Assembly: GCA_000004985.1 (NCBI GenBank)
Contig: GG738852.1
DNA: 64,000 bases
From: Naegleria gruberi
Taxonomy: Eukaryota
Strand: one strand, 5' to 3'
Within the stretch, counting starts at the first letter, position 1. Every line of letters begins with the position of its first letter. The notes under the pieces are model-generated. The model was not told the origin of the DNA. It was given only the letters and a program-made list of their open reading frames with translations, and did no database searches. Positions 58,883 through 64,000 of this stretch are shown here, in pieces. The translations under genes and the position numbers were made by a program.

Positions 58883-59620
58883 TTTAATGGCAATACAATT
58901 TAAGTCAGCAATATTCTGTTACATTGTAAATTAATAAAAACAAGATTGAGAACAAGTAATTATACTAATGAATATTAAAGCTCAAAGACTGTTTCACTTT
59001 TATTGATGAAGAATAAGTATGAAAAAATATTCAACTTATATTAAGTTTACAATAAAAACAAATCCATTCTTTACTTCGCTCAGAATTAGACATTATATCC
59101 TCAAATACTACTGCTCTCACTAATTCTTAATCTTAAACAATCTGATTCATCATTTGAGAGATATATCATTATACTCTCGTAAAATACAAGTTGAAAAAAT
59201 TGTAACACTTTAATTATGAGTTAATCAATAATTCAAGAAACCATTGTCTACATATGGAAGAACTAGTGTATTATTATAACAAAATTATTAAAATATTTTA
59301 AAAATTATCCTCAAAAAATAAGTCTCAACATCATGTCTTCATCATTATTAAGACAAAAAAAACCACTACTCCACCCTAAATCGAAAATATCTGTAAGTAT
59401 TGTATTTGCTTAATAAATTGGCTGGATGGTTGAATGAAAAGAGGATAAAATGTATACAATTTGTGTAGTAGAAAAATAAATTCACTGTTTTCAAAATCTG
59501 TTGTCCCATTGTTTTTACAAAAAAATTGATTATTTCAAAAGATTCATTCAAACTATCAATATGAAATACCAAATCAATATTACACATTTTTTTTAATTTT
59601 AAAAAAAAAACAAAATTATC

Positions 59621-61960
59621 ATGTTATCATTTACTTCTATTCAATTACAAAAGAATTTTAATTCCATCCAAGAAAATTTAATGACAAGGAATATACTATT
59701 AACTCCTGGAGAGACGATTCAAATTAATTCTCAAGTATTTTCAGTGAATTTATATTCATCATCGGATCAAAATAATTTAAATGATGAATTTCAAAAATCA
59801 ATTAGTGGACAAGTAGAAAACACAGAATTTATTCAATGTAAAGATCATTTGTTTACAATTGATAATTTATTACACGCTGATGAGTGTAGAGAAATTTTAC
59901 GCATGGAAGATTCCATTTACTTTACACCAATTTCGTCCGAATATCCTGAAGAGTATAGAAATAGCAAACGAATTGTTTATAATGATAAAGAACTTTCACA
60001 GAGATTATGGCGACGATTGAAAAAGTTTCTAGTTGATTGCAATTTCATGAAACCGTATGGTTTAGACACGGATGGATATTGGATTCCAATTGGTGTGAAT
60101 GAATGTTTGAGATTGAGTAAATATGAACCAGGGAATTATTTCAAACCTCACACAGATGGTCAATTTCTCAGAAATGATAATGAGAGAAGTATTTATACTT
60201 TACTAATCTATTTGAACGATGATTTTAAAGGAGGAGAAACCGAATTCTTACAAAGAGTAGATCCAACAGAGGAGTCTATCACCAAATTCAAACATATTTG
60301 TGCAATTAATCCAAGAATGGGATCTGCTGCAATATTTAATCATGAATTGTATCATCAGGGATGTATGGTCACTTCAGGGATCAAGTATATTTTGAGAACT
60401 GAGATAATGTTCAAGAGAATTGATTCAACAGAACAATTGGTGAATAAGAAGAATGATTTGCTTCACAATCAAATTATGAATCTCTTGAAAACAAGTGATG
60501 ATCTAGAAAAGAAAGGTGAAGTGATGGAATCTACCTATTACTATAGAAAAGCACAAGAGCTGTTAATTCAATATGGACATTCCACCTCATTATTGCTGGT
60601 ACCTACCTTTTCCAAGTCAAAAATCAGTTCCGAAGATTATTCTCTGAAAAGTACATTTTCTCAATTACCTGATGAGCTACTCATTCACATTTTCAAATAT
60701 TTGATGGATTGGGAAATTTGCCAACTCATTCTTCCACTCGATAGGTATTTCAATTATATTGGCAGAGACTTACAATTATGGGAATGGATGTATATGAACA
60801 AATGGGGAAATTCTATCACAAATTTATTGAAACAATTTAATGCAAGAAATACTGAGGAACTAAGAGAATTCAATTCACAAGACAATACGAGCTCACTTGA
60901 GGAAACACCAGCTGAGGAACAAGATTGGTTTCATATCTATATTATGAAACGTTATTTTGAAAAGGAATTTGAGCCAGTCTTTATTGATTATGGAAGTAAC
61001 CTATATGCAAACACCTATTTTTCATCAATTGATGGTCCTGTTCAAACTACTTTAACTAAAGTTCTTAGACCTCCAGCCTCTCAGTAAGTATTTCTATAGT
61101 TCATCTAGTTGATGACCATTATTTCAGCTTTTCACTTCCAAGATTTTCTTCTTATGGATTAATGGGAGATAATATTGATAGAGGACGTACTATAGATATG
61201 TTTGATGGTAATGGATTTAAAAAGCATATTCAAGTATTCACCTTTTTAATATACAAGAAAATGAAAAAGAGTTGTCAACGAAATCCACTTGTTGTCAGCT
61301 TGAATTCTAGAGCAATGGTTGACTTTGCAAAGGTCAAGGAAAGTATTTTGAATTTTTTGGTAAGTAGTATTGAAAATTCAACTATTAAATAATGTGAAAT
61401 AGTTCAGAATTCGTATTCCAGCCGTTTGCATTCTTCCAAGATGTTATCTATTGTCAATTTATTATAATCTTCCAACTTGCATAGTAGTGGATATTGGCAA
61501 ATATGATATTTATGTTCATACAGTTATTCAACATGATAAGGATCAAATAGGTACATTACATGCTGAATTTGATATTTATGGATCAAGTATCAACTTGTTC
61601 GAAACAGCTCAATCTACTGAAGAAAAAATCAAGTACATTGAAAATTGTGAAATTACTAAAGCCATTAATCAATTATTAGATCAGCATCCAAAAGAACTGA
61701 GAGCAGAATTGTTGGATAATATTATTTTCTCTGGAAATCTTGTGGAAATGGAATCATTATCAGACGTTCAACATGAAAGGAATCAAATTCTTAACATGTT
61801 CAATTCACCACATTCCACCTATCGAGTGAAACATCAAACGAGTGGTGAGGAGGCCATTCAGTCAGCCATTAATTTCTCAAAACTTCCAAACTTTAAAGAT
61901 TATTGCTCTTTCTGGTTTGATTGTGAAAAGATTGTTGAGTCAAAAGACACATTTATTTAA
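59621..61960 (+). CDS. Tri-domain protein: 2OG-Fe(II) oxygenase (prolyl-4-hydroxylase-like), F-box and actin-related protein (Arp). About 750 aa, 3 exons (59621..61083, 61128..61359, 61403..61960)
   Basis: Oxygenase HxD...H triad region: YFKPHTDGQF...SIYTLLIYLNDDFKGGETEFL...AIFNHELYHQG. F-box: LPDELLIHIFKYLMDWEICQLILPLDRYF. Actin fold begins in exon 1 (PVFIDYGSNLYANTYFSSIDGP ~ actin [21 protein letters not shown]) and continues through exon 2 (KHIQVFTFLIYKK..RNPLVVSLNSRAM ~ [34 protein letters not shown]) and exon 3 (LLSIYYNLPTCIVVDIG ~ VLSLYASGRTTGIVLDSG; RAELLDNIIFSGNLVEMESL ~ [20 protein letters not shown]; C-terminus ..HSTYRVKHQTSGEEAIQSAINFSKL). Introns GTAAGT..TTTCAG (44 nt) and GTAAGT..AAATAG (43 nt) keep the frame. 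Confidence 0.55.
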
Positions 61961-62138: not shown

Positions 62139-62489
62139 ATGTCTCAACTCATGGTTCGAAGCTATTCATTCCTCCTGTTGATGATGCTCTTGAGTGCAGT
62201 ATTGATGATGTTCATCTCAGCAGCATCACCAATGAATGCTCAATCCACCAGAGCATCCAATGTTCTTTCATTATTGAATGAAAAGAAGGAACAATTAGAG
62301 AAGGTAAATAATGGCTTGTCGGAAACGAGCTTGTTGATGATTGCAAGCAAGAGGGAACAATCTTCCCCTCTCTACACTGCCTACAGTGAGGAAAAGAATA
62401 GAATTTATAATGTATTGGTAGCAACAAAGGCAGAATTGGAATATGAAGTTCAACTTCCTTCAAAAATTATACAATTCATCGATCAATGA
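62139..62489 (+). CDS. Hypothetical ORF with a signal-peptide-like N-terminus (116 aa), overlapping the start of the TLDc gene in another frame. It may be the true N-terminus if a frameshift is present
   Basis: MSQLMVRSYSFLLLMMLLSAVLMMFISAASP... The frame differs by +1 from the 62443 ORF, and no canonical intron joins them. Confidence 0.25.
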   Translation: MSQLMVRSYSFLLLMMLLSAVLMMFISAASPMNAQSTRASNVLSLLNEKKEQLEKVNNGLSETSLLMIASKREQSSPLYTAYSEEKNRIYNVLVATKAELEYEVQLPSKIIQFIDQ

Positions 62490-63540
62490 ATCAACAACCT
62501 CAACAACAAGTGAAGCAGATTTGAAAAAGCAGATGAAACTTGAGCAAGAAGCTGCTGCTGTCAAGAAAGTAGAACAAGAAAGAAAATTGAAAGAGGAACA
62601 GGAAAAGAAGATTAAGGAAGAACAAGAAAAGAAACTGAAATTAGAACAAGAAGCTACTGTTGTTGCTGCCAAGAAAGCAGAACAAGAAAAGAAGATTAAG
62701 GAAGAACAAGAGAGAAAACTCAAAGCTGCTGAAGAAGAAGAAAGAAAGTTGAAAGAAGAAGCTGCTAAAAAAGCTGAACAAGAGAAAAAACTGAAAGAAG
62801 AACAAGAAAAGAAATTGAAATTAGAACAAGAAGCTGCTGCTGTCAAGAAAGCAGAACAAGAAAGAATTCAAAAGGAAGAGCAAGCGAGAAAAGCACTCGA
62901 ACTTGAAAGAAAGGCAGAACAAGAAAGAAAGGCCAAGGAAGAAAAAAGAATCCAAGAAGAAAGAGATAGATTAATCCCAACTATTGGTGAATTGGTCGAT
63001 TCTGATTTATTGACACCTTCTCAATCTGAAAGATTTATGAAAGAAATCATGAAAGGAGTCAACCAACAATTACCTCACAGAATTTGGAAAGCCAAGAAGC
63101 ACGGCTCATCAATTGCTAATTTCCATGCTACATGTGATAACATGGGACCAACCATTGTGTTGGCCAAGACTAGAAATGGAGCTGTATTTGGAGCCTATTC
63201 AAAGATTTCATATTCCCTATCAGGTGATTATGTTTCTGATCCAGCTGCTTTTATGTTTAGTTTGATTTCGGCTGAGGGAGAACAAAGATTTGTCAAGTTG
63301 ACCCAAACACCACAAATTGTTGATGGAAAACAAACTTATCCAACTTCAAAGATTCATAACGCAAATCATTTGATTACTTTTGGAGGTGGTTATGACTTGC
63401 TCATATCAGACAATACTGTTAGCTTGAGTTCTTCCCTTGTTTGTCATACTTATTGTGCTCCACAAGTTACAAATCCAAAGACTTACCTTGCTGGTGAAAG
63501 AACATTTATGATTGACGATTTTGAAGTTTATAGAGTTTAA
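62443..63540 (+). CDS. Coiled-coil (E/K-repeat) protein with a C-terminal TLDc domain, 365 aa
   Basis: TLDc motifs: HRIWKAKKHGSSIANFHATCDNMGPTIVLAKTRNGAVFGAYSKISYS...AAFMFSL...FGGGYDLLISDN...FMIDDFEVYRV (compare OXR1/NCOA7 TLDc: LLYRGSRDGFSASDFHSKCDNKGPTLTLIKTENGYIFGGYT). N-terminal 160 aa are KKAEQEKKLKEEQEKKLKLEQEAAAV-type repeats. Confidence 0.7.
   Translation: MKFNFLQKLYNSSINESTTSTTSEADLKKQMKLEQEAAAVKKVEQERKLKEEQEKKIKEEQEKKLKLEQEATVVAAKKAEQEKKIKEEQERKLKAAEEEERKLKEEAAKKAEQEKKLKEEQEKKLKLEQEAAAVKKAEQERIQKEEQARKALELERKAEQERKAKEEKRIQEERDRLIPTIGELVDSDLLTPSQSERFMKEIMKGVNQQLPHRIWKAKKHGSSIANFHATCDNMGPTIVLAKTRNGAVFGAYSKISYSLSGDYVSDPAAFMFSLISAEGEQRFVKLTQTPQIVDGKQTYPTSKIHNANHLITFGGGYDLLISDNTVSLSSSLVCHTYCAPQVTNPKTYLAGERTFMIDDFEVYRV
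62530..62960 (+). repeat. Imperfect tandem repeats of about 80-105 nt encoding E/K-rich coiled-coil units (GAACAAGAAAAGAA / AAGAAGCTGCTGCTGTCAAGAAAG motifs)
   Basis: Three to four recognisable copies at nucleotide level (e.g. 62521-62650 vs 62821-62880, with identical 'ttagaacaagaagctgctgctgtcaagaaag'). Confidence 0.55.
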
Positions 63541-63596: not shown

Positions 63597-64000
63597 TTAA
63601 GGTCTTCCTCTTCCACTAGTTCGCAAGCATTCACATGTTGGACAACCATGTCTATCTCTCTCAAATCCATTTTCACAAAACATTGTACAAGTGGCACGAT
63701 TACACTTCTTCACTCTCAATGGACGAATAAAATTACATTTACAAATTGGACAACCATTTCTTCTGTTCACTCTGAGTCCATATCGACACTTCTTTACAGT
63801 ACAAGAGGTACTTTGACCATAGCATTTGATGAATTGAAATCTAATCCAACGAACGAAATCATTGAGATCACCCTTGTGTCTTCTGTAGAGGAAACGATCT
63901 TTAGGATAACCAAAGAGTTTTTGATGAGTTTCGGCTTTCTCTTCTTGGAAACTGAATTGAATAAAGAGGCAGAGAATGATAGCAAGCAATGAAAGGGCAA
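63597..64000 (-). CDS. Secreted Cys-rich protein with antistasin-like domain(s); 5' partial because the N-terminus runs off the window end
   Basis: A hydrophobic leader (..ALSLLAIILCLFIQFSF) continues beyond 64000. Two Cys patterns: CTVKKCRYGLRVNRRNGCPICKC and CNRATCTMFCENGFERDRHGCPTCEC, of the form C-x4-C-x3-C-x10-C-x2-C-x-C with G-C-P-x-C-x-C. This resembles antistasin-type serine-protease-inhibitor modules. Assignment is from pattern memory only. Confidence 0.5.
   Translation of the reverse strand, partial: ALSLLAIILCLFIQFSFQEEKAETHQKLFGYPKDRFLYRRHKGDLNDFVRWIRFQFIKCYGQSTSCTVKKCRYGLRVNRRNGCPICKCNFIRPLRVKKCNRATCTMFCENGFERDRHGCPTCECLRTSGRGRP

What the first reader, a model, noticed from the sequence alone, without database searches (positions are those of the whole stretch)
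59621..61960. One predicted protein fuses a prolyl-4-hydroxylase-like 2OG oxygenase, an F-box and a divergent actin-related protein
Exon 1 is a single ORF containing an HxD...H 2OG-Fe(II) oxygenase core (HTDGQF ... GGETEF ... LYHQG), then a canonical F-box (LPDELLIHIFKYLMDWEICQLILPLDRYF). Without any stop, it continues into the first actin-fold phosphate-binding loop (VFIDYGSNLYANTYF). Two short GTAAGT introns of 44 and 43 nt carry the frame into the rest of an Arp-like domain, whose subdomain 3/4 motifs are recognisable. Cytoplasmic prolyl-4-hydroxylases are known in Dictyostelium and Toxoplasma to hydroxylate Skp1, which is the partner of F-box proteins. A 2OG oxygenase physically joined to an F-box is therefore suggestive. 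The extra Arp module has no precedent I know of.
Basis: partly seen in the sequence, partly recalled or inferred. Interest (0 to 1): 0.7.

Follow-up and report, generated by a model that had tools for sequence, protein, structure and literature searches.

The report
Oxygenase–F-box–actin-like fusion protein gene
This is a real three-exon gene of a Naegleria-like amoeba whose single protein joins a prolyl-hydroxylase-type oxygenase, an F-box and a stripped-down actin-like domain; it belongs to an unstudied family found so far almost only in these amoebae, and probably links oxygen-dependent protein modification to the ubiquitin machinery.

Summary
Window 59621-61960 (+) encodes a 750-aa protein from three exons with two GTAAGT...AG introns of 44 and 43 nt. 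All three domains are verified.

- **Oxygenase:** Pfam 2OG-FeII_Oxy_3 scores above its threshold, and the HxD...H...K catalytic residues are invariant across the family.
- **F-box:** the window copy is just below Pfam's threshold. A family profile hits only F-box proteins in the PDB.

The same architecture and the same intron positions occur in N. lovaniensis, and the architecture in N. fowleri, Willaertia magna and metagenomes. Public N. gruberi and ENA models stop at intron 1 and miss the actin-like part.

The oxygenase resembles collagen-type prolyl hydroxylases, not the Skp1 hydroxylase PhyA. The actin-like module lacks subdomain 4 and has degenerate nucleotide-binding motifs.

Each pair of domains has a precedent: KDM2A/B and Dictyostelium JcdI (oxygenase plus F-box), and plant ARP8/SUSA2 (F-box plus actin domain). 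I found no paper describing the three-way fusion.

The most likely role is a Skp1-docking adaptor with an active hydroxylase and an actin-fold partner-binding module. That role is inferred, not shown.

The parts
59621..61083 (+). Exon 1 (aa 1-487 plus two bases of codon 488). It encodes the oxygenase, the helical linker, the F-box, the junction helix and the first strands and phosphate-1 loop of the actin-like domain.
   Evidence: Continuous ORF. CDS assembly. tblastn of homologues.
59855..60391 (+). P4H-type 2OG/Fe(II) oxygenase catalytic domain (aa 79-257). Catalytic residues are H177 and D179 (60149-60157), H245 (within 60350-60361) and K255 (60383-60385).
   Evidence: Pfam PF13640 scores 45 bits against a threshold of 27. 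The alignment to Bacillus anthracis P4H pairs H/D/H/K with the enzyme's own residues. These residues are invariant in 9 family members. Profile against the PDB: P4Hs only.
60428..60640 (+). Conserved helical linker (aa 270-340) with family-invariant S292 and G299 and the motif LEKKGxVxEATxxYxxAQEL.
   Evidence: Family alignments. No Pfam match. The TPR-like appearance is my reading only.
60665..60805 (+). F-box (aa 349-395), LPDELLIHIFKYL...LWEWMYMNKW.
   Evidence: Pfam F-box-like scores 20 bits in the window, below the 24.3 threshold. Orthologues P0003, P0004, P0005, P0007 and P0008 pass. With the family profile, all 33 PDB hits are F-box proteins, led by FBXL5 at 1.6e-8.
60920..61957 (+). 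Actin-related (Arp-like) domain, aa 434-750, spanning both introns. Landmarks: junction helix 60920-60979; phosphate-1 loop FIDYGSN 60980-61006; IPAVC connector 61415-61453; phosphate-2 VVDIGKYD 61484-61516; adenosine motif IIFSGNLV 61718-61744.
61084..61127 (+). Intron 1, 44 nt, GTAAGT...TTTCAG, phase 2. It splits the codon of invariant His488.
   Evidence: The homologous intron is present in L001 and L002, with lengths differing between loci.
61128..61359 (+). Exon 2 (aa 488-565).
   Evidence: Frame continuity. Homology to orthologues and paralogues.
61360..61402 (+). Intron 2, 43 nt, GTAAGT...AATAG, phase 0.
   Evidence: The homologous intron is present in L001 and L002.
61403..61960 (+). 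Exon 3 (aa 566-750 plus TAA stop).
   Evidence: P0012 from an ENA contig is 98% identical to this exon.

Best explanation
**Shown.** This is one protein-coding gene of a Naegleria-like heterolobosean amoeba. Its 750-aa product has, in order:
- a catalytically intact prolyl-4-hydroxylase-type 2OG/Fe(II) oxygenase;
- a conserved helical linker;
- an F-box;
- a reduced actin-fold domain, directly continuous with the F-box region, that lacks subdomain 4 and has degenerate nucleotide-binding loops.

It belongs to a multi-paralogue family with this same architecture in Naegleria and Willaertia.

**Inferred.**
- The F-box docks the protein onto Skp1, and so probably into an SCF-type cullin-RING ligase.
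- The actin-like module sits where F-box proteins carry their substrate receptor. It would act as a non-polymerising, probably nucleotide-independent, protein-binding module. Likely partners are actin, an actin-binding protein or an Arp-binding helix.
- The N-terminal oxygenase uses O2 and 2-oxoglutarate to hydroxylate a residue, most likely a proline, on a partner held in that complex.

The layout parallels KDM2A/B (JmjC, F-box, LRR) and Dictyostelium JcdI. The C-terminal two-thirds parallel plant ARP8/SUSA2. The substrate is unknown.
For: **Gene model and conserved introns:**. The N. lovaniensis orthologue model came from an RNA-seq-guided BRAKER1 annotation (PMC6125883).

**Oxygenase:** Pfam PF13640 above threshold. 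H177, D179, H245, K255 and R259 are invariant in 9 members and align with the catalytic residues of B. anthracis P4H.

**F-box:** orthologues pass Pfam's threshold. The family profile hits only F-box proteins of known SCF complexes. The LPxE motif and the conserved W are retained.

**Actin fold:**

**No gene boundary at the junction:** the segment DWxxxxIxxRxxxEKxF is among the best-conserved stretches of the C-terminal half and leads directly into the first strand of the actin fold.

**Family:** four paralogues in N. lovaniensis (P0003, P0014, P0015, P0026), two in N. fowleri (P0004, P0019), one in W. magna, and metagenomic members.

**Precedents:** JcdI binds Skp1 through its F-box and is O2-dependent (PMC9485057). 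SUSA2/ARP8 binds ASK1 (PMC7562919).
Against: - There is no transcript, protein-interaction or enzyme data for any family member.
- The window's own F-box and actin Pfam scores are below threshold.
- The structure model is of the N. lovaniensis orthologue, which is only 27-28% identical in this domain, not of the window protein.
- In JcdI the F-box was dispensable for the O2 phenotype, so an F-box need not mean the protein is a ligase receptor.
- Loss of subdomain 4 and of the conserved glycines in the nucleotide loops means classical actin or Arp behaviour cannot be assumed.
Confidence: 0.6

Rival explanations
1. The oxygenase is a Skp1 prolyl hydroxylase tethered to its substrate. The F-box brings the P4H domain onto Skp1 so that it hydroxylates Skp1 itself, as PhyA does in Dictyostelium and Toxoplasma.
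For: An F-box would place the enzyme next to Skp1. Skp1 prolyl hydroxylation by a cytoplasmic P4H is established in protists (PMC9485057; abstracts).
Against: The oxygenase profile matches only collagen-type, bacterial, algal and viral P4Hs and P4H-TM. No PHD2 or PhyA-type chain appears even at E<=10. The hydroxylated proline of Skp1 lies in the region that contacts F-boxes (my own knowledge, not tested here), so a bound F-box would be expected to hinder access. This idea also does not explain the conserved Arp module.
Confidence: 0.1
2. The protein is a JcdI-like enzyme rather than a ligase receptor. The hydroxylase acts on cytoskeletal or chromatin targets reached through the Arp module. The F-box only subjects the enzyme to Skp1-dependent stabilisation or turnover, and no substrate is ubiquitinated.
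For: In Dictyostelium JcdI the F-box mediates Skp1 binding and affects protein level, but it is not needed for the O2-sensing phenotype (PMC9485057). The catalytic residues here are invariant.
Against: The Arp module sits exactly where substrate receptors sit in F-box proteins, as in SUSA2/ARP8, which is proposed to form an SCF complex. Nothing here separates this rival from the main explanation.
Confidence: 0.2
3. Two adjacent genes have been wrongly joined: a P4H plus F-box gene followed by a separate small Arp gene.
For: The public N. gruberi model (P0002) and the ENA model (P0001) end near intron 1 and contain no Arp part.
Against: Those short models end a few codons after the intron-1 position, which is intron read-through. 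The first strand and the phosphate-1 loop of the actin fold are in the same ORF as the F-box. Exons 2 and 3 have no conserved start of their own. Nine full-length homologues share the order of domains. The homology alignment crosses both junctions without a break.
Confidence: 0.03
4. The C-terminal part is a decaying, functionless remnant of an actin gene.
For: Subdomain 4 is lost and the nucleotide-binding motifs are degenerate. The Pfam Actin score is weak in the window copy.
Against: The reading frame is kept open in the window, L002, N. lovaniensis and N. fowleri. Invariant residues run through the domain. The orthologue gives a confident AF2 model, pLDDT 82.6. Differences from the 99%-identical contig L003 in exon 3 are 3 synonymous to 1 non-synonymous, which is too few to weigh.
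Confidence: 0.03

Closest known systems
Uncharacterised Naegleria/Willaertia proteins: N. lovaniensis C9374_004061 (P0003), C9374_013538, C9374_003586 and C9374_010640; N. fowleri FDP41_009829 (P0004) and FDP41_008733; W. magna ABK040_003979
   Same: They share the three-domain order: 2OG-FeII_Oxy_3, F-box-like, Actin. P0003 and P0004 share the reduced Arp module. P0003 also shares both intron positions with the window gene.
   Different: They are only 33-37% identical overall (P0003, P0004). The larger paralogues keep a full-size actin domain with TGG and DxGxSG motifs. All are named hypothetical or '...domain-containing protein', and I found no paper on them.
Arabidopsis ARP8 / SUSA2 (At5g56180), an F-box plus actin-domain protein
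   Same: The F-box lies immediately N-terminal to a divergent actin-family domain. The protein binds the Skp1 homologue ASK1 and is proposed to form an SCF ligase (PMC7562919; Kandasamy et al. 2008, cited).
   Different: It has no oxygenase domain. It is described as restricted to plants. No protein of ARP8's size (about 470 aa by my recollection) was among the 22 hits of the exhaustive search with the C-terminal profile, so common origin is unsupported. The fusion may be convergent.
KDM2A/KDM2B (FBXL11/FBXL10) and Dictyostelium JcdI/Fbxo13
   Same: A 2OG/Fe(II) dioxygenase and an F-box occur in one polypeptide. In KDM2 the order is oxygenase, F-box, then a C-terminal interaction domain (my knowledge). 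JcdI binds Skp1 through its F-box and is limited by O2. KDM2A/B F-boxes are among the PDB hits of this family's F-box profile.
   Different: Their oxygenases are of the JmjC class, whereas this one is P4H-type (PF13640). In the JcdI/JcdH groups the F-box-like sequence is near the N terminus. Their other domains are LRR, CXXC/PHD or none, not an actin fold.
Collagen-type prolyl 4-hydroxylases (Bacillus anthracis P4H, Chlamydomonas CrP4H-1, PBCV-1 P4H, P4H-TM)
   Same: These are the closest solved relatives of the oxygenase domain (E=4.7e-7 to 0.1). They share the HxD...H triad and a Lys ten residues after the distal His.
   Different: Those are stand-alone, secreted or ER enzymes (my knowledge). 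None carries an F-box or an actin domain. The substrate here is unknown.
PhyA / PHD2-type cytoplasmic prolyl hydroxylases
   Same: They belong to the same broad 2OG oxygenase superfamily and have a functional link to Skp1 in protists.
   Different: The family profile does not detect them in the PDB at E<=10. This protein is not a PhyA orthologue.

Membership tests
2OG-Fe(II) oxygenase, P4H type (Pfam PF13640) | Profile match above the curated threshold | tested here: met
   45 bits against a threshold of 27, aa 164-257.
2OG-Fe(II) oxygenase, P4H type (Pfam PF13640) | Fe(II) facial triad HxD...H and a basic 2OG-binding residue | tested here: met
   H177, D179, H245 and K255 (+10 from H245) are invariant in 9 members and align with H/D/H/K of B. 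anthracis P4H.
2OG-Fe(II) oxygenase, P4H type (Pfam PF13640) | 2OG-dependent hydroxylase activity, and proline as the target | not testable with these tools
   This needs recombinant enzyme assays.
PhyA / HIF-PHD prolyl hydroxylases (Skp1 or HIF hydroxylases) | Closest sequence relatives are PHD/PhyA-type enzymes | tested here: not met
   Profile A7 against the PDB at E<=10 returns only collagen-type, bacterial, algal and viral P4Hs, P4H-TM and ALKBH1.
F-box proteins | Pfam F-box or F-box-like above the curated threshold | tested here: inconclusive
   Window: 20 bits against 24.3, and 17.6 against 20.5. Orthologues and relatives pass: P0003 35.9, P0004 29.6, P0005 25.4, P0007 34.9. P0014 and P0026 pass at about 29.
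F-box proteins | Homology to structurally defined Skp1-binding F-boxes, with the LPxE start and a conserved hydrophobic core | tested here: met
   With family profile A8, all 33 PDB hits are F-box proteins: FBXL5 1.6e-8, then Cdc4, FBXO4, KDM2B and Skp2. P9, L20, L30 and W46 are invariant.
F-box proteins | Binds Skp1 | not testable with these tools
   This needs co-IP, two-hybrid or co-expression experiments.
Actin / actin-related protein family (Pfam PF00022) | Profile match above the curated threshold | tested here: inconclusive
   Window: 14 bits against 27. P0003: 24.8. Paralogues P0013, P0014, P0015 and P0019 score 50-63 bits and P0021 29.7. Window C-terminus against the HMM of five larger paralogues (four of them pass Pfam's Actin threshold; P0026 scores 26.5 against 27): 90 bits, E=1e-26.
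Actin / actin-related protein family (Pfam PF00022) | Actin fold: two RNase-H-like lobes | tested here: met
Actin / actin-related protein family (Pfam PF00022) | Intact nucleotide-binding motifs (phosphate-1 DxGSG, phosphate-2 DxGxG, adenosine GG) and all four subdomains | tested here: not met
   Window has DYGSN, DIGKY and SGN, and Q137 is replaced by R. About 90 residues corresponding to subdomain 4 are absent.
A named Arp class (Arp1-Arp11) | Consistently closest to one class | tested here: inconclusive
Plant ARP8/SUSA2-type F-box-actin proteins | F-box directly N-terminal to an actin domain | tested here: met
   The window's domain order is F-box then Arp. ARP8's architecture is taken from PMC7562919.
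Plant ARP8/SUSA2-type F-box-actin proteins | Orthology or shared descent with plant ARP8 | not tested
Nothing ARP8-like appeared among the 22 hits of the exhaustive C-terminal search.

The most novel reading that the evidence does not exclude
The family is an oxygen- and 2-oxoglutarate-gated SCF receptor for the actin system. The actin-mimicking module would capture actin or a specific actin-binding protein. The attached prolyl hydroxylase would mark it in an O2-dependent way, and the F-box would deliver it to Skp1/Cul1 for ubiquitination. This would couple oxygen or metabolic state directly to cytoskeletal remodelling in an amoeba that switches between crawling and flagellate forms.
Probability: 0.1. 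Interest if true: 0.8.

Novelty: new variant of a known kind. Interest (0 to 1): 0.5.

Why it matters
F-box proteins that carry their own 2OG oxygenase (KDM2A/B, JcdI) tie oxygen and metabolite sensing to the Skp1/SCF machinery. Plant ARP8/SUSA2 shows that an actin fold can occupy the receptor position of an F-box protein. This heterolobosean family combines both ideas and uses a different oxygenase class, the P4H type.

If the inferred mechanism holds, it would be an independent route by which protists link O2 and 2OG availability to ubiquitin signalling. It would also give a new, non-filament role to a stripped-down actin fold.

There is a practical point too. The public N. gruberi model is truncated at intron 1, so surveys of domain architecture that rely on that record would miss the actin-like part.

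Tried and rejected
**Searches that led nowhere**
- The search for homologous proteins with alignment queries (C-terminal profiles A2 and A9) returned almost nothing, not even the known orthologues.
- Exact look-ups of the window proteins and of N. gruberi P0002 found no record. The source organism could therefore not be named. The only trace is a 99.3%-identical 1.2-kb contig from run ERR1078381. That contig contains both introns, so it is genomic DNA and gives no splicing evidence.
- Literature searches for this domain combination, or for the family in Naegleria, found no description.

**Technical dead ends**
- The spliced window protein could not be submitted to the search of protein representatives. 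I expected the same for structure prediction and did not try it there. I used the N. lovaniensis orthologue with window exon fragments instead.
- MAFFT misplaced the short exon fragments twice before a clean alignment was obtained.
- The first AF2 run, with 5 rows, was poor in the N-terminal half (pLDDT 56). It was superseded by the 9-row run.
- The afdb50 fold library was unavailable.

**Ideas rejected**
- Two separate genes.
- A pseudogene remnant.
- PhyA orthology.

The reasons are given under the rival explanations.
Full report
**1. Observation**

The region contains a 488-codon ORF starting at ATG 59621. Removing 61084-61127 (GTAAGT...TTTCAG, 44 nt) and 61360-61402 (GTAAGT...AATAG, 43 nt) gives a 2253-nt CDS. 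It translates without stops to 750 aa and ends at TAA 61958-61960.

The window is 32.7% G+C. Its neighbouring genes are a RhoGEF, an alpha/beta hydrolase, an MFS transporter, DUF167, TLDc and an antistasin-like ORF. The best homologues are all heterolobosean, so the source is a Naegleria-like amoeba. It is not one of the annotated genomes in the protein collection: exact look-ups fail, and the best N. gruberi hit is only 49% identical. A 1215-bp contig from run ERR1078381 matches 60596-61810 at 99.26%, introns included.

**2. Gene model**

Transcript data were not available, but comparative evidence is strong.

- The N. lovaniensis orthologue (P0003, locus L001 5001-7349) has two introns at the homologous positions. 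That annotation was made with RNA-seq-guided BRAKER1 (PMC6125883).
- A metagenomic relative (L002) has two introns at the same positions but with lengths of 70 and 47 nt. It is 64% identical in exon 1, 37% in exon 2 and 49% in exon 3.
- In all three loci intron 1 splits the codon of a His (H488) that is invariant across nine family members. Only splicing restores it.
- An HMM built only from five larger paralogues aligns to the spliced window C-terminus at 90 bits (E=1e-26). The best of 2000 shuffles scores 7.2 bits. The alignment passes both junctions without a gap.
- The public N. gruberi model P0002 and the ENA model P0001 stop a few codons after the intron-1 position. They are intron read-through truncations.

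**3. Oxygenase**

Pfam 2OG-FeII_Oxy_3 scores 45 bits against a threshold of 27. H177-x-D179, H245, K255 and R259 are invariant in the family. In the pairwise alignment they fall on the corresponding H, D, H and K of Bacillus anthracis P4H.

A profile of eight family oxygenase domains finds only prolyl 4-hydroxylases of the collagen, bacterial, algal and viral type in the PDB: B. anthracis 4.7e-7, Chlamydomonas 2.8e-4, PBCV-1 0.024 and P4H-TM 0.11. No PHD2 or PhyA-type enzyme appears even at E<=10. The domain therefore looks catalytically competent and P4H-like, but it is not a PhyA orthologue. Its substrate is unknown.

**4. F-box**

The window copy is just below Pfam's threshold (20 against 24.3 bits). 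Orthologues and relatives pass: P0003 35.9, P0004 29.6 and P0007 34.9, and P0014 and P0026 about 29. A profile of eleven family F-box segments retrieves 33 PDB sequences, all of them F-box proteins. They include FBXL5 (1.6e-8), FBXW12/21, FBXO4, Cdc4, FBXL2, KDM2A/B and Skp2. The LPxE start and the C-terminal Trp are conserved.

**5. Actin-like domain**

- The window-subfamily profile hits Arp4 chains at E=6e-7 to 1e-3, with collinear stretches.
- The nine-member full-length profile hits actins at E=6e-18 to 1e-10 over actin residues about 2-331.
- An exhaustive HMM search of 1.8 billion representative proteins with the C-terminal profile gave only 22 hits. These were family members plus a few true actins or Arps near E=1e-4.
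- The long hits P0013, P0014, P0015, P0019, P0021 and P0026 all show 2OG-FeII_Oxy_3 and Actin, and all but P0019 also show a Pfam F-box-like match. Actin is above Pfam's threshold in five of the six, at up to 63 bits. They come from Willaertia magna, N. lovaniensis, N. fowleri and a JGI metagenome.
- AlphaFold2 on the C-terminal 294 residues of P0003, with a 9-row alignment, gave pLDDT 82.6 and pTM 0.84.
- Foldseek against the PDB returned actin and Arp structures in all top 50 places (E=7e-15, TM about 0.7).

The fold claim is therefore confirmed, with the caveat that the model is of the orthologue.

Alignment with actins shows that the window subfamily lacks roughly 90 residues corresponding to subdomain 4. 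Its nucleotide motifs are degenerate: DNGSG becomes DYGSN, DSGDG becomes DIGKY, SGGTT becomes SGNLV, and Q137 becomes R. The larger paralogues retain TGG and DxGxSG. No Arp class is clearly the closest.

**6. One gene, not two**

- The first strand and phosphate-1 loop of the actin fold lie in the same ORF as the F-box.
- The junction motif DWxxxxIxxRxxxEKxF is among the best-conserved stretches of the C-terminal half. In the model it forms a helix that runs into strand 1.
- The domain order is the same in nine full-length homologues.

**7. Mechanism (inferred)**

The layout is oxygenase, then F-box, then a C-terminal interaction domain. This mirrors KDM2A/B and resembles Dictyostelium JcdI/Fbxo13. 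JcdI is a JmjC dioxygenase that binds Skp1 through its F-box and whose activity is limited by physiological O2 (PMC9485057). Sporadic JMJD6-F-box fusions were noted earlier (PMC2938197). The F-box plus actin part mirrors Arabidopsis ARP8/SUSA2, which binds ASK1 (PMC7562919).

I therefore propose a Skp1-docking adaptor. Its reduced actin fold binds a partner, and its P4H domain hydroxylates a component of that complex. Whether it works as a true SCF substrate receptor or, like JcdI, mainly as a Skp1-regulated enzyme cannot be decided here. Direct hydroxylation of Skp1 is less likely given the oxygenase class.

**8. Novelty**

The architecture already exists in public proteomes as 'hypothetical' or '...domain-containing' proteins. 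Each pairwise fusion has a published precedent. I found no paper describing a P4H-type oxygenase fused to an F-box, or the three-way fusion.

It is best rated a new variant of a known kind, namely multidomain F-box proteins. So far it is seen almost only in Heterolobosea. More distant oxygenase plus F-box relatives turn up in metagenomes and in a Rotaria record. Interest is moderate: the family is well defined, testable and unstudied, but its function is purely inferred.

Noticed in passing
Homologues P0002 (N. gruberi) and P0001 (ENA contig L002); window 61084-61127: The public N. gruberi 'predicted protein' (576 aa) and the ENA model (506 aa) end a few codons after the intron-1 position. This is intron read-through, so those records lack the whole actin-like part.
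   Followed up: partly
L003 (= window 60596-61810) and L002: A Logan contig from run ERR1078381 (metagenome PRJEB11402) is 99.26% identical to the window, both introns included. The nine differences are 5 synonymous, 3 non-synonymous and 1 intronic. Another contig from the same run (L002) carries a copy that is 75% identical at the nucleotide level, either a paralogue or a sister species.
   Followed up: partly
window 63597-63989 (-): A 130-aa Cys-rich ORF matches Pfam Antistasin (49.6 bits against a threshold of 21.2). That domain is best known from leeches and other animals, so it is unexpected in a Naegleria-like genome.
   Followed up: no
window 62139-63540 (+): The downstream neighbour is a TLDc-domain protein (77.5 bits) preceded by a long E/K-rich repetitive, probably coiled-coil, region. 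ORF 62139-62489 may be an upstream exon or a separate small gene.
   Followed up: no
window 60428-60640 (aa 270-340): The linker between the oxygenase and the F-box is conserved across the family (S292 and G299 invariant; motif LEKKGxVxEATxxYxxAQEL). It looks like a TPR-like helical hairpin but has no Pfam match.
   Followed up: no
Homologues P0004, P0005: The oxygenase domain of relatives also matches Pfam Pox_C4_C10, the poxvirus C4/C10 family. P0005 scores 28.1 bits, above the threshold of 25.
   Followed up: no
Homologue P0009 (Rotaria sp.): A rotifer record carries a related oxygenase followed by a partial F-box-like motif and an unrelated C-terminus. It could reflect wider distribution, horizontal transfer or contamination.
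   Followed up: no
window 59334-59400 (+): In the 740-nt AT-rich region upstream of the gene, a short ATG-initiated ORF (MSSSLLRQKKPLLHPKSKIS) runs directly into a GTAAGT. It may be a micro-exon of an unannotated gene, or chance.
   Followed up: no
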